Assembly: GCF_030013205.1 (NCBI RefSeq)
Contig: NZ_CP122648.1
Reading direction: 5' to 3' (one strand)
DNA: 64,000 nt
From: Escherichia coli
GTDB lineage: Bacteria; Pseudomonadota; Gammaproteobacteria; Enterobacterales; Enterobacteriaceae
Part shown: positions 2,046-36,460 of the stretch, one piece after another
Layout: each line of letters opens with the position of its first letter
Numbering within the stretch: position 1 is the first letter of the stretch
Program-made: the position numbers and the translations under genes
Notes under the pieces: generated by a model
What the model saw: only the letters and a program-made list of their open reading frames with translations
The model's database searches: none
What the model was told of the DNA's origin: nothing

Positions 2046-3035
2046 TTATGTGGATGAAATGTGGATGCCTCCTTTTAATGGATTAAGTGAAATTGCATCC
2101 TGGAGGAAATCAGGAGCGAGGTGCGCATAGGTCATAGTTTGCTGGATCGTGGCGTGCCCCATAATTCGCTGGAGCGTAAGTATATTTCCTCCATTAATCA
2201 TAAAGTGAGCAGCAAAGGTATGGCGTAGAACATGTACAGCCTGTCCTTTTGGTAGGTCTGGCTTAACACTGCGAAGCACCTTGCGATATTCTTCATAATT
2301 GACGTCAAACAAAAGGCCGGATTTCTTTGTTTTGATCTCACTAACAACTTCATCAGAGACAGGAATAATTCGAACTTTTCCGTTTTTAGTTTTGTTAAAC
2401 GTCACGCGATTATTGATGATGTGTTCCGCGCGCAGATTTTTCGCTTCTCCCCATCTCGCCCCAGTACTGAGACAAAGTAGCGTAATCCGCCGAGCATCAC
2501 CGCTTACTGCATCCAGCAATTTGGCGATTTCTTCCGTAGTGAGGTACGTCATTTCGGGTGATTTTCGTTTCAAAGAGGGGAGGGCGCGGAGTGGATTTTC
2601 TCCGTGAAATTCTCCGGCATTTGCCAGGAGTGTAAACATTCCTCCGAGATCCGACTCATCACGCCGAACAGTAGACTCTTTTACTCCCAAGGATAAACGG
2701 GAGCTTCGATAAGCTGCCATGAAACGAGCATTAATCTGGCTAACCCTTGGATCATTCATTTCTTTGATGATTTTTTTCAATCTGGTTAGAACGCCGTTAG
2801 CATATGGCTTATTGCGTCCACCCAATTCCCACCATAACGGAAGCAGATCTGAGAGATGACGTTGCTCTGTTGGCTTTTCAAGCCATTCCTTATCGTGCAT
2901 GTGGCTGAGAACATAGCGCTCAAAGGCCACTGCATCTGCCTTTTTCTTAAAAATCCGCTGGATCCGACGTCCACTTCGGCCACGCGGTCTAACATCCACT
3001 TTATACCGTCCACCATCGAGTGCTTTAATTGCCAT
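2046..3035 (-). CDS. int: Phage integrase (tyrosine recombinase, P2 Int family)
   Basis: MAIKALDGGRYKVDVRPRGR... and C-terminal ...VLRHTFAAHFMINGGNILTLQRIMGHATIQQTMTYAHLAPDFLQDAISLNPL closely resemble P2 Int; start chosen at the Met with a GGAGGG RBS (the ORF could extend to 3068). Confidence 0.85.
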   Translation of the reverse strand: MAIKALDGGRYKVDVRPRGRSGRRIQRIFKKKADAVAFERYVLSHMHDKEWLEKPTEQRHLSDLLPLWWELGGRNKPYANGVLTRLKKIIKEMNDPRVSQINARFMAAYRSSRLSLGVKESTVRRDESDLGGMFTLLANAGEFHGENPLRALPSLKRKSPEMTYLTTEEIAKLLDAVSGDARRITLLCLSTGARWGEAKNLRAEHIINNRVTFNKTKNGKVRIIPVSDEVVSEIKTKKSGLLFDVNYEEYRKVLRSVKPDLPKGQAVHVLRHTFAAHFMINGGNILTLQRIMGHATIQQTMTYAHLAPDFLQDAISLNPLKGGIHISST

Positions 3036-3101
3036 TGGCAAGCCCTCCGGTGAAACGAGGAAAGACATTTCCAGTTTGTAAAACGTAAGAATAATAAAGG
3101 G

Positions 3102-3499: not shown

Positions 3500-3826
3500 A
3501 TGAATGAAGAACTATTGAGGGCATTGTTTAAGATCCCGGACCCCATCACCGTCGATGAGTTTTCCCGCCGCACAGGTAAGACCGAATCAGCCGTAAGAAA
3601 GTTGGTAGAGCGTCGACTCATCCCTCTAACTACTGAGCGCGAGGTTTTAGGCGAGGAAGGGAGTTCGCGCCGTCTTCTCATCCTTTGGAATGAGTGGCTC
3701 GAAATGGTCTATGACGCAACGAAACAGCTTCCTCCTGAGCGTAAAGATTGGCGCAATCACTGGCTTAAGAAAGCCAAGAAGCTGGCGGAAGATTTGGGAT
3801 TAGGCTTCCTTAATTTTGCTGCATGA
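3500..3826 (+). CDS. Cox/excisionase-like early regulatory protein (putative)
   Basis: First gene of the rightward early operon, divergent from the repressor; positional call only, with no clear similarity to P2 Cox. Confidence 0.4.
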   Translation: MNEELLRALFKIPDPITVDEFSRRTGKTESAVRKLVERRLIPLTTEREVLGEEGSSRRLLILWNEWLEMVYDATKQLPPERKDWRNHWLKKAKKLAEDLGLGFLNFAA

Positions 3827-9580: not shown

Positions 9581-10540
9581 ATGAAAATTTGTATCGACGA
9601 CGGCTCCACCAACATCAAGCTGGCATGGACTGAGAACGGCGAACGCCGCAACGCCATCAGCCCGAACAGCTTCAAGTCGGAATGGTCTGCGCCGTTCGGT
9701 GGCTCGCAGCCTGCGAACTACATGCTTGATGGCGTGCGCTATGGTTTTGATCCGGTCAGCGATCGCTTTGTCCAGACGACCGACACGCAATACCAGTACA
9801 GCGATGTGAATGTCATTGCCATTCATCACGCGCTGGTCAAATCAGGCATCACGCCTCAGGAGGTGGATGTGGTTGTCACCCTGCCACTGAGCGAGTATTT
9901 CGACACAAACGCACAGCCAGACATGGCCAACATCAACCGCAAAAAAGCGAACGTTATGCGCCCGGTGGAGTACCAGAACGGCGAAGCATTCACTATCCGT
10001 AACGTGCGGGTTATGCCTGAATCCATTCCGGCTGGTTTTAAGGCACTGGCTGACATGAGTCCGTTTGAATCCCTGCTGATTGTGGATTTGGGCGGAACCA
10101 CGCTGGATGTGGCAAAGGTTCAGGGGCAACTGGCAGGTATCAGCCAGGTGTTTTGCGATCCACACGTAGGCGTTTCTCTGATGGCTGATGCCGTGCTGTC
10201 GGTGATGGCCACTAACGGTATGCGTACCAGTCACCACATCGCCAATACCATTATTGAGCACCGTCACGATGAAGCCTGGCTACGCCAGCACATTCACAAT
10301 GACGCGCATTACAACAGCCTGATGGCGGTTATTCGTGAAAAGGAGGAAACACTGAAACAACGCGTGATCCGCGCGCTGGCGGGTTTTTCGGGTTACGGGC
10401 GGGTGATGGTTGTAGGTGGAGGAGCGGAGATTGTGGCACCCGCTATCCGCGAAGCCTGCGGAGTTAATGCGACTTTCATCGCGGACGGGGTGCCACAGTT
10501 TGCTCTGGTTAATGGGCTGTACGCAATGGACAAGGAGTAA
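9581..10540 (+). CDS. parM: ParM/StbA-like actin-family segregation ATPase
   Basis: MKICIDDGSTNIKLAW...ISPNSF...YSDVNVIAIHHAL...VMPESIPAG...IVDLGGTTLD...VGGGAEI...ALVNGLYAM tracks plasmid R1 ParM along its whole length (recalled alignment). Confidence 0.8.
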   Translation: MKICIDDGSTNIKLAWTENGERRNAISPNSFKSEWSAPFGGSQPANYMLDGVRYGFDPVSDRFVQTTDTQYQYSDVNVIAIHHALVKSGITPQEVDVVVTLPLSEYFDTNAQPDMANINRKKANVMRPVEYQNGEAFTIRNVRVMPESIPAGFKALADMSPFESLLIVDLGGTTLDVAKVQGQLAGISQVFCDPHVGVSLMADAVLSVMATNGMRTSHHIANTIIEHRHDEAWLRQHIHNDAHYNSLMAVIREKEETLKQRVIRALAGFSGYGRVMVVGGGAEIVAPAIREACGVNATFIADGVPQFALVNGLYAMDKE

Positions 10541-10544
10541 ATCA

Positions 10545-10859
10545 ATGACGACACCAACCAGACGGATAAGTTTCTATCTGAAGCCCGCCGTCGTCAAGAG
10601 CGAACGGGAGGCGTGCAGTTACCTCGACAGCCTGCCAGCCTCCGAACGCAGCCGCGCACAACGCGCGGCTTTTCTGGCCGGACTGGCTCTTATAAAACGC
10701 ATCCCCGCGTTGGCGTATTCGCTGGCAGAATGGTCAGAAGACGAAATAAGGATGCCACCGCTACCAGTACAGCCTGAAAAACCGGCGAAACCAGCAGCAG
10801 ACAGCGCCCCCCATATGCAGCAGGTGAAGAAGAATATTCAGGCGTTTTTTCCGAAGTGA
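10545..10859 (+). CDS. parR: ParR-like centromere-binding adaptor (putative)
   Basis: RRISFYLKPAVVKSEREACSYLDSLPASERSRAQRAAFLAGLALIKR resembles the R1 ParR N-terminal DNA-binding region; immediately downstream of parM. Confidence 0.6.
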   Translation: MTTPTRRISFYLKPAVVKSEREACSYLDSLPASERSRAQRAAFLAGLALIKRIPALAYSLAEWSEDEIRMPPLPVQPEKPAKPAADSAPHMQQVKKNIQAFFPK

Positions 10860-11172: not shown

Positions 11173-11532
11173 ATGATGAAAGATAATTCCGGAAGCCAGC
11201 GTGCATCAGTTGCAGTTATGGTAATGATTAAATTTGTGAAACAGTACACCGGAAAGCCAATCTCGCTCCGGCAATTAAGCAAAGAAACCGTTTCACTGTC
11301 ATATCTGGAGCAAATATTCAGATATTTACGGGAAAGTAGCCTGGTAAAAGCCACACGCGGCCCGGGTGGTGGATATATCCCAACAAAAGAAAATTACAGT
11401 GTTGGTGATATTGTCCGGGCAATGAAATGTTCCGGATTATATACACAGCACGTTATTCTGGCTGCACTGGATAATATTTCTTTAACCAGCCTGCAGGAAG
11501 ACACAAATTATCAGTTGTCTGCCATTGAATAA
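11173..11532 (+). CDS. Rrf2-family (IscR/NsrR-like) transcriptional regulator
   Basis: ...SLSYLEQIFRYLRESSLVKATRGPGGGY... is the Rrf2 HTH signature; AT-rich; start uncertain (11161 or 11173). Confidence 0.6.
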   Translation: MMKDNSGSQRASVAVMVMIKFVKQYTGKPISLRQLSKETVSLSYLEQIFRYLRESSLVKATRGPGGGYIPTKENYSVGDIVRAMKCSGLYTQHVILAALDNISLTSLQEDTNYQLSAIE

Positions 11533-11535
11533 GAA

Positions 11536-11580
11536 AACCCGGAACGGGTGCGCAAATTCTTTGTGCGCCCGTTCCGGGTT
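11536..11580. terminator. Strong bidirectional hairpin terminator (21-bp stem)
   Basis: aacccggaacgggtgcgcaaa-ttc-tttgtgcgcccgttccgggtt between the convergent Rrf2 gene and the zinc-finger gene. Confidence 0.6.
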
Positions 11581-11600
11581 GGACAAGCGAAGCGCGTCAG

Positions 11601-11858
11601 CTATCCGGCCTGCAACAACTCCAGAGCCATTTGTTTTTCTTCCGGACGCATCCGCTCAATCAACAGCTTTAACACACCATTCTCCAGCCCGCTGGGCACC
11701 AGTGTGTGCGAGTAGGTCAGATTCATCACCCAGGTATGTCCGCACTCGAGACGGGTGCAACGGTAATACACATCAGCAAACTGATCGGTTTTCCAGGCTG
11801 TTTTCTCAATCACTGCATGTGCACCGCAGCAATGACATCGCGCTTTCTGTCTGCGCAT
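11601..11858 (-). CDS. Ogr/Delta-family zinc-finger late transcription activator (putative)
   Basis: C-x-CC ... C-x4-C spacing (RCHCCG...YYRCTRLECGHTW) parallels P2 Ogr; start at the Met with a GGGAGGTGG RBS. Confidence 0.5.
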   Translation of the reverse strand: MRRQKARCHCCGAHAVIEKTAWKTDQFADVYYRCTRLECGHTWVMNLTYSHTLVPSGLENGVLKLLIERMRPEEKQMALELLQAG

Positions 11859-11923
11859 TTTCCACCTCCCGGAACAGCGTTTTACTGCCACCGATTTTAC
11901 CCGCTCTTTCCCCATACCGCACA

Positions 11924-12958
11924 TCACTCCGTGGATTCGTTAAATTCAAGAATAAATTCCACCTGCCCCAGCCGTCTGATATCCGGATCGCTGTTGATCC
12001 CCTCCATAATCAGACGGCGCATCGGAATAACCTCATCTCTGTAATATGCCTCGCGGGATTTCAGTGGGTCACCAAGCCCGGCCGTATTTGCGGGAATGAT
12101 GCCGGCAAGTCCGGGTGGAAAACGGTGCGCAACGAGCTGATCCTGGGCACTGATGGTTTTTATATTCAGGAACTCATCTTTTGTGCCTGAATCCCCGATA
12201 GGGATCACCTTAACGCCTTCTTTGTCTCCGCCCGGTATATTGATAAACATGGATTTAAAATTGCCCGCCCCTTTTGACGCCTCTATCTTTTTACGGAATT
12301 CCGCCTCGAGCTCGGGATCCATGTCCGGGTCAGTGGAATACAGGATATAACCAAGATGTGCGCCGTTCTTGTAATACTTGCGGCGAAAGCGGGTGGCATC
12401 CACATTCAGCATGGCGGATTCCATCCCGTGAATATAATCCGGGACACCGTAAACCTGCTGTTGCGGGTCATAAATGGCCACGAACACCACTTCGCCTGGC
12501 GGGTAAACGAGATCTTCCAGTGCTGCCTGCACAATCACCGTGCCACCCTCGTTGTTACGCCGCAGGTACAGAGAAGGTAACGTATGCAGGCGCACCACGC
12601 GACCGAAGCCATTGCGCACTTTAAGCAACCCCATATCCCCGAATATCAGCAGATTGGTTACTGCTGCCGCCATGGCGGCGTGTGTCATACCACCACCACC
12701 CCGAAAACCCTGCATGATCATATTGACGCGCGCACGCAATACCGCGCCGTGATACGGTGCGATATTGGACAACATGGCGAGATCCATGCGCTCAATTGGC
12801 GGCGTGTACCAGCCGTTATAGCCATCCCAGAGCGAGCCGTAATAACAGCCCCATGCAGCGACCGGTTCCGGGTCACCAAATTCAATAAACGTCATTTTGC
12901 TGGCTGTTTTTTTTGCCACGCCATCGTGTAACACGGGGTATTTTTTCTTTTTACTCAT
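11924..12958 (-). CDS. Portal (capsid vertex) protein gpQ
   Basis: 344-aa ORF directly downstream of and co-oriented with the terminase ATPase, as for P2 Q. Confidence 0.8.
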   Translation of the reverse strand: MSKKKKYPVLHDGVAKKTASKMTFIEFGDPEPVAAWGCYYGSLWDGYNGWYTPPIERMDLAMLSNIAPYHGAVLRARVNMIMQGFRGGGGMTHAAMAAAVTNLLIFGDMGLLKVRNGFGRVVRLHTLPSLYLRRNNEGGTVIVQAALEDLVYPPGEVVFVAIYDPQQQVYGVPDYIHGMESAMLNVDATRFRRKYYKNGAHLGYILYSTDPDMDPELEAEFRKKIEASKGAGNFKSMFINIPGGDKEGVKVIPIGDSGTKDEFLNIKTISAQDQLVAHRFPPGLAGIIPANTAGLGDPLKSREAYYRDEVIPMRRLIMEGINSDPDIRRLGQVEFILEFNESTE

Positions 12959-14738
12959 CTGACAGGATCCATGTTGATTTGCGCTTGTGCTTATAGTTCA
13001 GGGGTTCATTACTTGCGGCATGAGCTATGGCAAAGAAGATGTCAGCGTGCCCGGTTTCTTCGCTACGTTCGGCGGTGAAAGTGACTTTATTGCCGCTGTT
13101 GGTGGATTCCTGACGAATGGCCAGGAACGATGCCGGAATATCCGTGGCTTCTTCATCCCACTCAATACGGTTGGCGTAAATCAGATCCAGCATCTTCATC
13201 ACCAGGCGGTTTTTGGATTCCACGCTGTAATGAATGGCCACTGTTTCACGGCGGGCAAATCCCTGAACCAGCTCAAAGACACCGTAGCCAAGACCGGTGA
13301 CGTCAATGCCGATAAATGTCATGTTATAGCGCGCCTTAATGCTGCGGATACGCTCTGCCATAAACTGGAATGACATGCTGCGCCAGTGGTGTTTTTCCAG
13401 CACGCGGAATCGTTCTGCCGCAACCAGCGGCGGTGCCAGCACAACAAATGTGGCGTTATCGCCGGAGCGCGCAGGGTCAAAGCCGCCCCACACTTCACGG
13501 TTACCAAATGGCATGGGCTCTTCCGGGTGAAAATCCTCCCACGTACTGACATCAACACCACAACGCACAAGATCATCGAATTTAAAGACGCTCTCTTTGT
13601 CATCCACAAACACACACATAAACAGCATATTGAACGCTGTTTCGTTGTATCGCTCGCGCAGCTCGTTGATGTCAGCAAGGTTAAAGCCGCCGGCAATGGC
13701 ATCTTCCAGCGTAACCACATAGCGCCACTGACCATCCGGACATTCACGCCCACCATCGCGCAGCTCATCAAAGGACGGAAACTCAACCCCTTTTCGTTTC
13801 GGATCGCCTTTGCGCCATTCATCGCCAGACCAGAACGGGTAACCCTGGTGTGTTTTGGATGACGGCGTGGAGAAATAGGTAATGCGCCAGTGTTTATGGG
13901 TGGCCATCCCTGATGCCACTTCATTGAGACGGCGAAAACCGGGGATCCACAGGTATTCATCAATATACAGGTGGCCGCTGTTTGACTGCGCTGTGTTACT
14001 GTTGGTCGCCAGAAAATACAGTTCAGCCAGATTACTTAACTTAACCGGATTGCCTTTAATGGGAATGCCAAACTCTGTTTGTGCAATTTTTACAATATAA
14101 GTACGGAACACTTCGGCCTGACGTTTTGATGCCGATAAAAATATCTGTGTGTCGCCGGTTAATACTGCATCTTCAAATGCCTCAAACGCGAAGTAATACG
14201 TCGCCCCAATCTGGCGGGATTTAAGCAGGTTGCGTACACGGCGGAATTTGTTTTCACGCAGATGCAACTGATAAGCAAACAACTTTTTCGTAAACGGCTC
14301 AAAACTTTCAGCAGTCAGTCCGGAAACGTCATTAGTTTTGCGGGGACGCTCTTTCTTACCTGCACCTTTTTCTCCGCGTTCTTCTTTTCCATAACGGCCA
14401 GGCTGGGGGATGTCCACTCCCATTCGCGCAATCTCAGCCATTCGTTCTGTATGCTTGTTTCTGACCGACATCAGTTTGACGTGATGACCAATCAGGCGAT
14501 CAAGCTCATCGTGTTCTTCCTGGGTCTTATGGTCACGTTCCGCCAGTACAGCGAGACGCCGGGCGATAACATCCTCCACGCCTTCCGTATTGAGCTGCGT
14601 GTACCACTCAAACTTTGTCGCCCAGTAATAAACAATTCGCGGACTGTTCAGTCCGAGTTTCTTTTGTATTTCTTTTGGTGTGTGCCTTTTCAGATAGAGT
14701 GATTTTGCTGCGGCAATCACCTCATCAGAATACGCCAT
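12951..14738 (-). CDS. Terminase large (ATPase) subunit gpP
   Basis: 595-aa ORF; size, position and divergence from the O-N-M-L operon as in P2. Confidence 0.85.
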   Translation of the reverse strand: MAYSDEVIAAAKSLYLKRHTPKEIQKKLGLNSPRIVYYWATKFEWYTQLNTEGVEDVIARRLAVLAERDHKTQEEHDELDRLIGHHVKLMSVRNKHTERMAEIARMGVDIPQPGRYGKEERGEKGAGKKERPRKTNDVSGLTAESFEPFTKKLFAYQLHLRENKFRRVRNLLKSRQIGATYYFAFEAFEDAVLTGDTQIFLSASKRQAEVFRTYIVKIAQTEFGIPIKGNPVKLSNLAELYFLATNSNTAQSNSGHLYIDEYLWIPGFRRLNEVASGMATHKHWRITYFSTPSSKTHQGYPFWSGDEWRKGDPKRKGVEFPSFDELRDGGRECPDGQWRYVVTLEDAIAGGFNLADINELRERYNETAFNMLFMCVFVDDKESVFKFDDLVRCGVDVSTWEDFHPEEPMPFGNREVWGGFDPARSGDNATFVVLAPPLVAAERFRVLEKHHWRSMSFQFMAERIRSIKARYNMTFIGIDVTGLGYGVFELVQGFARRETVAIHYSVESKNRLVMKMLDLIYANRIEWDEEATDIPASFLAIRQESTNSGNKVTFTAERSEETGHADIFFAIAHAASNEPLNYKHKRKSTWILSDE

Positions 14739-14824
14739 AAATAAACCTCACCTGCTGATGCAATTTTAATTTATGCATTTTCAGCAAAGGCTTTTTTAAA
14801 AACGAATATCGCTTTTCGGTATTT

Positions 14825-14848
14825 TTCGGATATATGCGCATATCCGAA
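14825..14848. promoter_or_regulatory. Perfect 9-bp inverted repeat (TTCGGATAT-N6-ATATCCGAA) in the divergent late promoter region between gpP and gpO
   Basis: Read directly in the 194-bp P/O intergenic region; no P2-type TGT-N12-ACA Ogr site seen there. Confidence 0.35.
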
Positions 14849-14932
14849 AGTACCGGAAATTAATCAGATGACGACGTTTTCATTTCTCCGTTAAATAACG
14901 CCAGTTTAATTTTTATCAGCGGATTAATTCAG

Positions 14933-15829
14933 ATGACGAAGCAGAAAACAGACTGGGTTGTGGTTGCCACATCAGGCCCCACCATCGACGGTCGGGAAAT
15001 TGATCCGAAGTGGCTGACGGATGCCGCCGAGGTTTACAACCCGGACGAGCGAGCCGCCATGCTCTGGCCATATCACGCCGATTCCGGATGGCGTGCCTTC
15101 ACCAATAACTACGGCATTGTTGATGCCCTGAAAGTCGAAAAATTTGGTGAAAAGGTGCAGCTTAAAGCACGCCTGATCCCAAATCGCTTCCTGATTGAAG
15201 CCAATAAGGCCGGGCAGAAACTTTTTACCTCCATTGAAGTGCGGGAAAACTATCTGGGCACGGGCAAATTCTTTGTGTCCGGTATCGCCGTGACGGATAC
15301 CCCAGCCAGCATTAACACTACACGCCTGCAGTTTTCCATGGGGGAAGCCATCCATATGGGCAACGCAGAGGCGCTGAATTTTACGCTGCAGCCTGATGAT
15401 GAGCAGGCCAAGCGCAACTTCTTCTCCCGCTTCTTCTCATCTGACAATCACCAACAGGGAATTTACCAAGCCATGAACGAAGAACAGTTCAGCCAGTTAA
15501 TGGGTGCCATTAATAAAACCAGTGAACGCCTGGACGAGCTGGAAAAAAACGTCGCGCAGTTCAGCGCGAAGGATGCCCCGAAAGATACCGGTGATAACAA
15601 GCCGGAAGGCAGCACCGGCGATCAGGGGCAGGACAACGCAGAACAGAACAACAAGGACGACAAAACCTTCACGCTGACCACCGAGCAGGGCGAAAAGCTG
15701 TTCTCCACAGTGAACGCCATCGCGGAGAAGGTTACCAGTATGGAAACCGCATTTGCTGAACTCAGCAAGGACGCCACGAAGCTGCCGGGCAACAATCCGG
15801 CCGGTGGCGAAACTTTTAACCTGGTGTAA
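14933..15829 (+). CDS. Capsid scaffolding protein gpO
   Basis: ...FFVSGIAVTDTPASINTTRLQF... resembles the P2 gpO core; first gene of the O-N-M-L operon. Confidence 0.8.
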   Translation: MTKQKTDWVVVATSGPTIDGREIDPKWLTDAAEVYNPDERAAMLWPYHADSGWRAFTNNYGIVDALKVEKFGEKVQLKARLIPNRFLIEANKAGQKLFTSIEVRENYLGTGKFFVSGIAVTDTPASINTTRLQFSMGEAIHMGNAEALNFTLQPDDEQAKRNFFSRFFSSDNHQQGIYQAMNEEQFSQLMGAINKTSERLDELEKNVAQFSAKDAPKDTGDNKPEGSTGDQGQDNAEQNNKDDKTFTLTTEQGEKLFSTVNAIAEKVTSMETAFAELSKDATKLPGNNPAGGETFNLV

Positions 15830-21750: not shown

Positions 21751-21814
21751 TTTTACGCTTAATAAGCCTTCCTGCAGGCTTATTAAGCCCTCTTATTCTT
21801 GACTTTAAAAGGAA

Positions 21815-22108
21815 ATGATGATGAACGATAAAAACACCCAGACTACCGCAGAGAACACCATCACTTTACAGGTCGGCGAGCATGAACTGACGTTTATCCC
21901 GACCGTAAAAGCCTACAACGACCTGCAGAACGACTTCATGCCGGATAACAAAATCGCGCCGCTGAAAAACTACCTGCGCCGTATCGTGATTAAAGAGCAC
22001 CGCGATCTGCTTAACCAGTTGCTGGAAAAACCAGGAATGCCGGCCAGCCTGGCAACAGCCGTGAATAACGAGTTTGTGCCGGAAGTGGAAATCACCGTAA
22101 AAAAATAA
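21815..22108 (+). CDS. Tail assembly chaperone (short product; a -1 frameshift would extend it to 22296)
   Basis: Immediately upstream of the tape measure gene; ends in the slippery A_AAA_AAA plus stop. Confidence 0.5.
   Translation: MMMNDKNTQTTAENTITLQVGEHELTFIPTVKAYNDLQNDFMPDNKIAPLKNYLRRIVIKEHRDLLNQLLEKPGMPASLATAVNNEFVPEVEITVKK
22099..22105 (+). other. A_AAA_AAA slippery heptamer for programmed -1 ribosomal frameshift
   Basis: Seven A in X_XXY_YYZ register followed by the 0-frame stop; the -1 frame stays open to the TAA at 22294-22296, abutting the tape measure ATG. Confidence 0.5.
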
Positions 22109-34749: not shown

Positions 34750-34890
34750 ATGTCGCAAAAATCGCTTACGGCCATCACGTTCTGCGTGACGGTAATCCTC
34801 ATCATCTGGATGCTGCACGGCTCGCTGTGTGAAATACGGATGAGCTTCTGGGGAGCGGAGTTTGCGGCGTTCTTACAGTGTAAACAGTAA
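34750..34890 (+). CDS. Hok/Gef-family type I toxin (46 aa)
   Basis: MSQKSLTAITFCVTVILIIWMLHGSLCEIRMSFWGAEFAAFLQCKQ carries the Hok/Gef SLCEIR...AAF signature; long structured leader upstream; below the ORF-track cutoff. Confidence 0.65.
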   Translation: MSQKSLTAITFCVTVILIIWMLHGSLCEIRMSFWGAEFAAFLQCKQ

Positions 34891-35464: not shown

Positions 35465-35511
35465 GATTTGTTATCATATCGGCAGCAGTAACCACACAAG
35501 AGGTGCCGCAA

Positions 35512-35709
35512 ATGACGCAAAATGTACGATGCAAAAATTGCAACAAACTACTTGCCCGCGCCTCATTTCACTACATTGAAATAAAATGTCCGCGCTGCAA
35601 AACACTTAACCAGATAACGAGAGCCATCGAGCACCCCACACACATGAGGAGTTATGACCGTGGGGATCGCAATCCAGCACCAACCAGCACATATACCGGA
35701 ACACACTAA
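35512..35709 (+). CDS. com: Com-like zinc-finger translational regulator (phage Mu Com family, putative)
   Basis: MTQNVRCKNCNKLLARASFHYIEIKCPRCKTLNQITRAIEHPT vs recalled Mu Com MKSIRCKNCNKLLFKADSFDHIEIRCPRCK...CEHPT; AAGAGGTG RBS; overlaps the 5' end of the methyltransferase ORF. Confidence 0.6.
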   Translation: MTQNVRCKNCNKLLARASFHYIEIKCPRCKTLNQITRAIEHPTHMRSYDRGDRNPAPTSTYTGTH

Positions 35710-36460
35710 GGTTTATCAGACTGACAATGCCACGCTCTGTCGTGGGAATGCGCTGGAAATATTGCCGCTGATTGAGCCAGAAAGCATTGATGCCTTAATC
35801 ACTGACCCGCCTTACAGTTCGGGTGCGACACACAAGGCCGGACGCACCAACCAGGGCAGCCATGCAAAATATCTGAACGGCGAGAACCTTCACCGCTTTG
35901 ATGGGTTCGCTGGTGAAAACATGGACGCCCGTTCGTGGGCTTACTGGACACAATTATGGATGGCACAGGCACACCGTGCAGTCAGGCCGGGCGGTTATGC
36001 CCTGGTATTTACTGACTGGCGACAACTACCAGCTTTAACCGATGCGTTTCAGGCCAGTGGCTTTACATGGCGCGGCATCATTGCGTGGAACAAGGGGAGG
36101 GGGTCACGAACACCCCATACGGGGTATTTCAGGCATCAGTGCGAATACATCGTCTGGGGCAGCAAAGGCCATTTAGATAAATCGCCTTCGGGGCCGTTCG
36201 ACGGTTGCATGACGTACCCGGTTATCCCGTCAAAGAAAATGCACCCGACCGGAAAACCAGAAGAACTAATGGCGGAACTGGTCAGGACTGTGAATAGTGG
36301 CGGAACAGTCCTTGATCCTTTTATGGGGTCAGGGACAACGGGTGTGGCTGCACTGAAAGCAGGGCGAAAATTTATTGGTATAGAAACCAGTGATCATTAT
36401 TTTGAGGTAGCAGCGCAGCGGCTTCGAGAGACTATTACCACAACCATTTCGGCTACATAA
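35654..36460 (+). CDS. DNA amino-methyltransferase (N6-adenine or N4-cytosine; DPPY motif before the AdoMet motif)
   Basis: ...IDALITDPPYSSG... and ...VLDPFMGSGTTGVAALKAGRKFIGIE...; start lies inside the com-like ORF (ATG 35654, or GTG 35660). Confidence 0.8.
   Translation: MTVGIAIQHQPAHIPEHTKVYQTDNATLCRGNALEILPLIEPESIDALITDPPYSSGATHKAGRTNQGSHAKYLNGENLHRFDGFAGENMDARSWAYWTQLWMAQAHRAVRPGGYALVFTDWRQLPALTDAFQASGFTWRGIIAWNKGRGSRTPHTGYFRHQCEYIVWGSKGHLDKSPSGPFDGCMTYPVIPSKKMHPTGKPEELMAELVRTVNSGGTVLDPFMGSGTTGVAALKAGRKFIGIETSDHYFEVAAQRLRETITTTISAT

What the first reader, a model, noticed from the sequence alone, without database searches (positions are those of the whole stretch)
14739..14932. Divergent late promoter region with a perfect 9-bp inverted repeat and a duplicated start-site motif
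The P/O intergenic region contains TTCGGATAT-N6-ATATCCGAA (14825..14848) preceded by a direct repeat of TTTTCGG. The sequence around the gpO start (taattcagATGacga) is duplicated about 55 bp upstream (taatcagATGacgacg), creating an 8-codon mini-ORF. No P2-type TGT-N12-ACA Ogr site is visible, so late activation may use a different site even though an Ogr-like protein is encoded.
Basis: seen in the sequence. Interest (0 to 1): 0.4.

Follow-up and report, generated by a model that had tools for sequence, protein, structure and literature searches.

The report
Shared late-promoter control site, HP1/K139 type
The palindrome between the terminase and scaffold genes of this E. coli prophage is a deeply conserved control site, most likely where the phage's Ogr-like zinc-finger activator binds to switch on both divergent late operons; it corresponds to the known shared site of phages P2 and 186 but has a different sequence and spacing.

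Summary
TTTCGGATAT-N6-ATATCCGAAA (14824-14849) sits at the centre of the 194-bp P/O gap and is unique in the window.

It is the core of a symmetric four-box element, TTCGG-N5-TTCGG-N14-CCGAA-N5-CGGAA.

The window is an E. coli chromosome carrying a prophage with a P2-type immunity region and HP1/K139-type late genes.

Vibrio phage K139 has identical arms in its own P/O gap, although its scaffold protein is only 38% identical. HP1 has a multi-box variant.
- Of 34 viral contigs with the exact dyad, 32 have it between divergent terminase and scaffold genes.
- Of 80 relatives found by protein alone, 50 have exact TTCGG-N13/14-CCGAA there.
- The arms are conserved and the spacer is free.
- -10-like hexamers lie 43-48 bp from each edge of the dyad, on both sides.

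An Ogr/Delta gene sits downstream of the portal gene. RefSeq annotates one shared activator site between the divergent P/O promoters of P2 and 186.

Best reading: this is the HP1-clade version of that site. It has a different motif, its centre is predicted at about -66.5 rather than -55, and it occurs once per genome.

The 11-nt "duplicated start site" overlaps the -35-like box of PO, and the mini-ORF is not conserved. Binding was not tested.

The parts
14815..14819 (.). Outer-left box TTCGG (within TTTTCGGTA, 14813-14821)
   Evidence: Read. Outer boxes are conserved 6-10 bp from each inner arm in 41 dereplicated relatives, with up to 1.83 bits of information per position. It is part of the 44-nt best matrix hit at 14815.
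14824..14833 (.). Inner-left arm TTTCGGATAT of the perfect dyad
   Evidence: Identical 9-nt arm in K139 and in 32 viral contigs at the same P/O position.
14834..14839 (.). 6-bp spacer ATGCGC, sequence not conserved
   Evidence: Spacers differ between relatives: ATACAC, ATGCGT, CCACAA, AACCCC, AGCCCT, CGAGTT, TCGCGA.
14840..14849 (.). Inner-right arm ATATCCGAAA of the perfect dyad
   Evidence: (A/T)TA(T/A)CCGAA is the best conserved word in P/O gaps of the 80 relatives.
14853..14859 (.). Outer-right box CCGGAAA, an imperfect copy of CCGAA
   Evidence: The O-side consensus is C.GAA at offsets 6-10.
14868..14873 (+). Predicted PO -35-like hexamer ATGACG. It lies inside the upstream copy of the 11-nt repeat and is the start of the mini-ORF.
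   Evidence: Offsets 20-25 from the dyad edge. Relatives have ATGCGG, GTGCGG or ATGACG at the same offset. T21 and G22 carry more than 1.1 bits each.
14891..14896 (+). Predicted PO -10 hexamer TTAAAT. The inferred transcription start is near 14903.
   Evidence: Offsets 43-48. The mean -10 matrix score over 41 dereplicated relatives peaks sharply at offset 43 (+2.38; next best -0.48). AATAAT is the commonest word there. Inference only; no transcript data.
14777..14782 (-). Predicted PP -10 hexamer GAAAAT (ATTTTC on the + strand). The inferred start is near 14770.
   Evidence: Offsets 43-48 on the P side. The -10 score also peaks at offset 43 there, and CATAAT occurs in 19 of 41 relatives. ATTTTCAG is conserved in E7-1N7. 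The Z1324-type relative, whose P-side flank carries an insertion and differs in sequence, has AATAAT at the same offset.
14746..14753 (-). Shine-Dalgarno AGGTGAGG for gene P
   Evidence: Read; it lies 7 nt before the ATG at 14738.
14868..14894 (+). 8-codon mini-ORF MTTFSFLR*, judged not functional
   Evidence: It is not conserved in length, start codon or peptide. It lies upstream of the predicted PO start.
12951..14738 (-). Gene P, terminase large subunit, first gene of the leftward late operon
11924..12958 (-). Gene Q, portal protein
11601..11858 (-). Ogr/Delta-like zinc-finger gene, the candidate activator, 65 bp downstream of Q on the same strand
   Evidence: Pfam PF04606, 48.3 bits. RefSeq WP_001254198.1. 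40-42% identical to K139 orf13 and 20-21% to P2 Ogr. K139 orf13 is in the same place.
14933..15829 (+). Gene O, capsid scaffold, first gene of the rightward late operon. That operon appears to run to about 33920.
   Evidence: Only three gaps of 70 bp or more lie downstream in the cluster, and none has the motif.

Best explanation
The dyad is the core of a symmetric four-box DNA element: TTCGG-N5-TTCGG-N14-CCGAA-N5-C(C)GGAA, 14815-14858. It is the single late-gene control site of this HP1/K139-type prophage.

Proposed mechanism (all inferred):
- The phage's own Ogr/Delta-family zinc-finger protein (11601-11858, minus strand) binds the element as a symmetric oligomer.
- From this one position it activates two weak sigma-70 promoters that fire in opposite directions.
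- PP drives P, Q and probably ogr itself, which would give positive feedback.
- PO drives O, N, M, L and the tail and lysis genes.
- Each promoter has its -10 hexamer 43-48 bp from the edge of the dyad. That puts the dyad centre near -66.5 and the outer boxes near -47 for both promoters.

Shown here: the existence, uniqueness, position and deep conservation of the element; the symmetric -10 positions; and the synteny with an Ogr-like gene.

Inferred: that the Ogr-like protein is the binder, the transcription start sites, and the feedback loop.
For: 1. The element is unique in the window and statistically extreme.

2. Position and centring: the dyad centre (14836.5) is within 1 bp of the centre of the 194-bp P/O gap.

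3. Deep conservation without DNA homology.
- K139 has TTCGGATAT-aacccc-ATATCCGAA in its P/O gap. Its gpO is 38% identical, and a DNA search of the phage collection found no match to this region.
- HP1 has a multi-box version.
- The exact dyad lies between divergent terL and scaffold genes in 32 of 34 viral contigs, at 42-100% terL identity.
- In 80 loci chosen by the terL protein only, 50 have exact TTCGG-N13/14-CCGAA in the P/O gap. Only 2 loose matches (N11 spacing) occur elsewhere in the roughly 11.7-kb loci.
- 74 of 78 distinct gaps match with 2 or fewer mismatches.

4. Arms are conserved and the spacer is free, which is the signature of a two-half-site protein site.

5. The -10 score peaks at the same offset (43) on both sides. 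A -35-like TG sits at offsets 21-22 on the O side. No consensus sigma-70 promoter exists in 11400-15000, as expected for activator-dependent promoters.

6. An Ogr/Delta gene is present here and lies downstream of Q in K139 and in the relatives examined. 79 of 80 relatives have a tblastn match to it.

7. The dyad is not an immunity operator. The window's repressor is P2 C-type (52% identical to P2 C, E 4e-34) and unrelated to K139 cI, yet the dyad arms are identical in the two phages.

8. Precedent. RefSeq records annotate one shared activator site between the divergent promoters in both phages:
- P2: site 3057-3087, transcription starts at 3016 and 3127.
- 186: B protein site 3798-3817.
- Smp131 is described the same way (PMC3931495).
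Against: - No binding or transcript data exist here. The transcription starts are inferred from hexamer positions only.
- The motif does not resemble the published Ogr consensus TGT-N12-ACA (PMC3931495).
- The predicted centre (-66.5) is about 11 bp further upstream than in P2 (-55).
- The TTCGG core is invariant across the clade, so no protein/site covariation could be used to tie it to the Ogr-like protein. The link rests on synteny and on exclusion of the immunity repressor.
- One relative with the dyad (L114) showed no Ogr-like gene within the 11.8 kb held.
- The genome papers on HP1 and K139 could not be read, so prior description cannot be excluded.
Confidence: 0.72

Rival explanations
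1. The element is a real, conserved protein-binding site, but for a factor other than the Ogr-like protein. Candidates are a host protein conserved across gamma-proteobacteria, or another phage late-module protein acting as repressor or co-activator of the divergent promoters.
For: The binder was not tested. The motif is unlike TGT-N12-ACA. The same core occurs in phages of Haemophilus, Vibrio, Aeromonas and E. coli, as a conserved host factor would allow. Four boxes at 10-bp spacing resemble arrays bound by several families of regulators (own knowledge).
Against: I know of no host regulator with a TTCGG-N14-CCGAA site (own knowledge, not tested). The only regulator gene kept together with the late module across these phages is the Ogr-like gene. 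Early-region regulators differ between window and K139. P2 and 186 use exactly this position for Ogr and B.
Confidence: 0.17
2. The dyad acts as a nucleic-acid structure (cruciform, RNA hairpin or terminator) rather than as a protein recognition site.
For: 10-bp perfect arms with a 6-nt loop could form a hairpin. In an unrelated AT-rich phage the same 24-mer is followed by a T run and looks like a terminator.
Against: The flanking genes diverge from it, so there is nothing to terminate. No T run follows it here. By the conserved -10 positions it lies upstream of both starts and would not be transcribed. The arms are conserved as sequence, TTCGG/CCGAA, not merely as complementarity. Additional unpaired outer boxes are also conserved.
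Confidence: 0.03
3. The duplicated start-site motif creates a functional upstream mini-ORF (leader peptide) that controls gpO translation.
For: An exact 11-nt repeat within 261 bp is unlikely by chance, roughly 1 in 100 by simple counting. The ATG is conserved in most E. coli-lineage relatives.
Against: ORF length is 8 codons here and 22 in E7-1N7. The start is GTG in L077. The peptides differ (MTTFSFLR, MTTFLFLR, MTTYLFRF). The gpO second codon varies (ACG, TCG, CCG), so the repeat decays in close relatives. The upstream copy coincides with the clade-wide -35-like box, and the ORF lies upstream of the predicted start.
Confidence: 0.05
4. Chance palindrome of no function.
For: None beyond the fact that short palindromes occur.
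Against: Zero expected in shuffles. It recurs at the same position in dozens of distant relatives.
Confidence: 0.01

Closest known systems
Shared Ogr-dependent PP/PO control region of coliphage P2, and the B-dependent p12/pV region of phage 186
   Same: - One activator site lies midway between the divergent terminase (P) and scaffold (O) late promoters.
- The activator is a small C4 zinc-finger protein of the Ogr/Delta family encoded by the phage.
- The core promoters are weak.
- P2: site 3057-3087 between starts 3016 and 3127. 186: B site 3798-3817.
   Different: - Sequence: TTCGG-N14-CCGAA with flanking repeat boxes, instead of the TGT-N12-ACA consensus (PMC3931495).
- Predicted centre about -66.5 instead of about -55.
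- One site per genome instead of four late promoters.
- The activator gene lies downstream of Q, not at the far end of the late region.
- The activator is only about 20% identical to P2 Ogr. It carries a clade-specific CGH(T/S/R)(F/W)V.N motif after the second cysteine pair.
P/O intergenic regions of Vibrio phage K139 and Haemophilus phage HP1 (Peduoviridae: Longwoodvirus, Hpunavirus)
   Same: K139 has identical 9-nt arms and the same N6 spacing. HP1 has TTCGGATAT-N6-TTATCCG plus extra GGATAT/ATATCC boxes. Position between P and O is the same. An Ogr-like gene lies downstream of Q.
   Different: The K139 record annotates only putative sigma-70 hexamers (P16, P17) over this stretch, with no activator site. 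The HP1 record annotates nothing there, and its Ogr-like gene is unannotated and split by a frameshift. The window prophage combines this late module with a P2-type C/Cox immunity region, as reported for some E. coli prophages (PMC3448106).

Membership tests
Ogr/B/Delta-dependent late promoters of P2-like phages | An Ogr/Delta-family C4 zinc-finger activator is encoded by the same phage | tested here: met
   PF04606, 48.3 bits against a cut-off of 26.3, for 11601-11858 on the minus strand. RefSeq names it an ogr/Delta-like zinc finger protein.
Ogr/B/Delta-dependent late promoters of P2-like phages | An upstream element matching TGT-N12-ACA | tested here: not met
   No TGT-N12-ACA in 14739-14932. 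The consensus is as quoted in PMC3931495.
Ogr/B/Delta-dependent late promoters of P2-like phages | Activator site centred near -55 of the late promoter | tested here: inconclusive
   The conserved -10 positions predict the centre at about -66.5. The proximal inner and outer boxes together centre near -52. No transcript mapping is available.
Ogr/B/Delta-dependent late promoters of P2-like phages | One site shared by the divergent P (terminase) and O (scaffold) promoters | tested here: met
   The dyad centre is within 1 bp of the gap centre, with symmetric -10 hexamers. P2 and 186 are annotated in the same way.
Ogr/B/Delta-dependent late promoters of P2-like phages | Several late operons (four in P2), each preceded by the site | tested here: not met
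   There is a single site in the window, in two related E. coli prophages, and in K139 and HP1. The other gaps in the late cluster lack it.
Ogr/B/Delta-dependent late promoters of P2-like phages | The activator binds the site, and activation depends on the RNA polymerase alpha subunit | not testable with these tools
   Needs EMSA or footprinting, and rpoA mutant hosts.
HP1/K139-type P/O control element (defined here by comparison) | TTCGG-N13/14-CCGAA between divergent terminase-large and scaffold genes, flanked by repeat boxes one helical turn out | tested here: met
Intrinsic terminator or structural hairpin | A G+C-rich stem followed by a T run, downstream of a gene | tested here: not met
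   It is not listed by the terminator scan. No T run follows it, and the genes diverge from it.
Regulatory upstream ORF (leader peptide) | Start codon, length or peptide conserved in relatives | tested here: not met

The most novel reading that the evidence does not exclude
The HP1/K139 branch of the Ogr/Delta zinc-finger family recognises a DNA word (TTCGG) unrelated to the P2-type site. It binds as a higher-order symmetric complex to four boxes. From a single site about one helical turn further upstream than in P2, it drives the entire late regulon (two divergent operons, about 22 kb) in phages of Haemophilus, Vibrio, Aeromonas and E. coli. This would be an uncharacterised recognition code and geometry for this family of prokaryotic zinc-finger activators.
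Probability: 0.55. Interest if true: 0.55.

Novelty: new variant of a known kind. Interest (0 to 1): 0.45.

Why it matters
The Ogr/B/Delta proteins are the classic prokaryotic zinc-finger transcription activators, but how they read DNA is still poorly defined.

A second, sharply defined and highly symmetric target is present once per genome in many phages. In E. coli and Vibrio phages the arms are identical. This gives three things:
- a clean substrate for binding and structural work;
- an easy cross-activation test, K139 orf13 against the E. coli prophage protein;
- a simple marker for annotating the late control region of HP1-like prophages.

It also shows that this phage type probably runs all morphogenesis and lysis genes from one bidirectional switch. 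That is relevant to satellite or helper exploitation and to engineering.

Tried and rejected
- DNA search of the phage collection with the region found no match. The relatives are too diverged at the DNA level.
- The scan of genome contigs with gpO alone returned one locus, E. albertii.
- Searching for the dyad at the other suggested late promoters found nothing.
- TGT-N12-ACA: 19 matches in the window against 14.4 expected, none in the P/O gap. The one at 11428 is inside a coding region.
- The consensus sigma-70 scan found none in 11400-15000.
- Covariation between Ogr-like protein variants and half-site variants was not informative, because the TTCGG core is invariant.
- Literature: the exact words TTCGGATAT and ATATCCGAA gave only unrelated papers among those listed. 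Searches on Ogr, HP1, K139 and late promoters gave no description of this site. The K139 and HP1 genome papers are not held.
- Two viral contigs carry the exact dyad without P/O genes. The one examined (L025) looks like a terminator hairpin in an unrelated AT-rich phage.
- The immunity-operator idea was rejected.
- The DnaA box in the E7-1N7 spacer was judged coincidental, because it is absent elsewhere.

Full report
**What the window is.** The region matches E. coli chromosomes RM10740 and ETEC4079 at 100%. 41 of 5426 complete E. coli genomes carry a relative covering at least 80% of the query. It is a prophage next to pheA. On the minus strand it carries the ogr-like gene, Q (portal) and P (terminase large subunit). 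On the plus strand it carries O (scaffold), N, M, L and then the tail and lysis genes. The scaffold protein is only 38% identical to that of Vibrio phage K139 and about 35% to that of Haemophilus phage HP1, which are the closest sequenced phages. The immunity repressor is P2 C-type, 52% identical. Such chimeras, with a P2-type switch and HP1-like late genes, have been noted in E. coli (PMC3448106).

**The observation.** TTCGGATAT-N6-ATATCCGAA is at 14825-14848, and the perfect arms are 10 nt long (14824-14833 and 14840-14849). It is the only match in 64 kb even with three mismatches, with none in 100 shuffles. TTTTCGG is repeated at 14813 and 14823. The mirror image, CCGAAA and CCGGAAA, lies on the right at 14844 and 14853. 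The element is therefore four boxes: TTCGG-N5-TTCGG-N14-CCGAA-N5-CGGAA. Its centre (14836.5) is within 1 bp of the centre of the 194-bp gap. The 11-nt repeat TCAGATGACGA is real but spaced by 65 bp. The mini-ORF is MTTFSFLR*. No TGT-N12-ACA lies in the gap.

**Comparative evidence.**
- K139 has TTCGGATAT-aacccc-ATATCCGAA in its own P/O gap.
- HP1 has TTTGGATATcTTCGGATAT-agcacg-TTATCCGcctATATCCtacgATATCCAAA.
- A 72%-identical E. coli relative (E7-1N7) keeps the arms (TTCGGTTAT and ATATCCGAA) but has a different spacer.
- A scan of 2.9 million viral contigs for the exact dyad gave 34 contigs. In 32 of them it lies between divergent terL and scaffold homologues, with terL identity from 42% to 100% and at least ten different spacers.
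- The two exceptions have no P/O genes. The one examined (L025) looks like a terminator hairpin in an unrelated AT-rich phage.
- An unbiased set of 80 loci was collected with a terL protein alignment. Exact TTCGG-N13/14-CCGAA occurs in 50 of the P/O gaps. Only two loose matches, with N11 spacing, occur elsewhere in the roughly 11.7-kb loci.
- 74 of 78 distinct gaps match with at most two mismatches.
- A weight matrix made only from sites outside the E. coli lineage scores the window site at 36.9 bits. The next place outside this element scores 2.8 bits, and the best of 20 shuffles is 7.8.
- In K139, HP1, the window and two further E. coli prophages, the dyad occurs once per genome.

**Architecture.** The gaps were anchored on the dyad and dereplicated at 80% identity, leaving 41 sequences. 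A -10 matrix then peaks sharply at offset 43 from the dyad edge on both sides. On the O side the score is +2.38 against a next-best of -0.48, with the words AATAAT, GATACT and TTAAAT. On the P side it is +0.38 against -2.26, with CATAAT and GAAAAT. The outer boxes C(C/A)GAA sit at offsets 6-10 on both sides. A -35-like word, (A/G)TG(C/A)CG, sits at offsets 20-25 on the O side.

In the window this gives:
- PO: -35 ATGACG (14868-73), -10 TTAAAT (14891-96), start near 14903.
- PP: -10 GAAAAT (reverse complement of 14777-82), start near 14770.

The dyad centre is then about -66.5 for both promoters. The consensus sigma-70 scan finds no promoter in 11400-15000, as expected for activator-dependent promoters. 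The start sites are inferences.

**Who binds.**
- The window encodes an Ogr/Delta zinc-finger protein just downstream of Q.
- K139 orf13 is in the same place.
- HP1 has an unannotated, frameshifted copy there, and an HP1-like prophage (L120) has it intact.
- 79 of 80 relatives have a tblastn match.
- These proteins share a motif after the second cysteine pair, CGH(T/S/R)(F/W)V.N..(F/Y).HT, which P2 Ogr lacks.
- The immunity repressors of the window and K139 are unrelated although the dyad arms are identical, so the dyad is not an immunity operator.

**Comparison with known systems.** RefSeq records for P2 and 186 each annotate one activator site shared by the divergent P/O promoters. In P2 it is at 3057-3087, between starts at 3016 and 3127, so its centre is at -55. 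In 186 the B protein site is at 3798-3817. Smp131 is described likewise (PMC3931495). The logic of the region is therefore known. What differs here:
- the recognition sequence;
- the four-box symmetry;
- the predicted extra helical turn of distance;
- the single site per genome, against four late promoters in P2;
- the location of the activator gene inside the leftward late transcription unit, which suggests positive feedback. This last point is an inference, though the gene location was also noted for K139 and Smhb1 in PMC8537503.

**The duplicated start motif.** The upstream copy overlaps the conserved -35-like box. The mini-ORF varies in length (8 or 22 codons), start codon (ATG or GTG) and peptide. 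The gpO second codon varies, so the repeat decays even in close relatives. I regard it as a lineage-specific coincidence between the -35 box (ATGACG) and the first codons of gpO.

**Verdict.** This is a real, strongly conserved cis-regulatory element, most likely the HP1/K139-clade counterpart of the shared Ogr/B site of P2 and 186. I found no description of it in the searchable literature, but the original HP1 and K139 papers could not be read. Binding and transcription starts remain untested.

Noticed in passing
window 35503-35709 (+) and 35654-36460 (+): A Mu Com-like zinc-ribbon ORF (PF10122, 44.6 bits) overlaps the start of an N6/N4 DNA methyltransferase gene. This suggests Com-type translational control of a methylase. 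It lies outside the late region of the prophage.
   Followed up: partly
L005 1583-1875 (-), which is about NC_001697 10417-10709 (HP1c1): The HP1 RefSeq record has an unannotated Ogr-like gene split between two reading frames, either a frameshift or a sequencing error. An HP1-like prophage (L120) has the intact 90-aa protein.
   Followed up: partly
window 11533-11600: A long near-perfect hairpin (AAAACCCGGAACGGGTGCGCA...TGCGCCCGTTCCGGGTT) lies between the convergent Rrf2-like gene and ogr. It is probably a two-way terminator.
   Followed up: no
L048-L116 (many loci), P side of the gap: In most distant relatives the P start codon lies only about 9 nt after the conserved -10 (CATAAT), 57-58 nt from the dyad. 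This predicts a leaderless or nearly leaderless terminase mRNA. The window instead has a leader of about 32 nt with a Shine-Dalgarno sequence.
   Followed up: partly
window 11859-11923 (minus strand), upstream of ogr: The Q-ogr gap reads GTGCGG-N17-TAAAAT. GTGCGG is the same unusual -35-position word found at PO in relatives. It may be a separate promoter for the activator gene.
   Followed up: no
L002 20313-20336 (E. coli E7-1N7): In this relative the dyad spacer together with the left arm forms a perfect DnaA box, TTATCCACA. It is absent in other relatives, so it is probably a coincidence.
   Followed up: no
L003 20240-20300 (E. coli Z1324SEC0014) and L045: A 36-bp insertion on the P side of the gap carries direct repeats (GTTCCGTAAC twice). 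The -10-like AATAAT is still at offsets 43-48 from the dyad.
   Followed up: partly
window 9581-10855 and 34750-34890: The prophage carries ParM and partition-protein genes and ends near a Hok/Gef toxin gene. These are plasmid-like maintenance functions in an integrated P2-like prophage.
   Followed up: no
window 21751-21820: The gap between the endolysin and the tail chaperone holds a perfect hairpin (CTTAATAAGCC...GGCTTATTAAG) followed by TTGACT. It may be an internal terminator or promoter inside the long rightward late operon.
   Followed up: no
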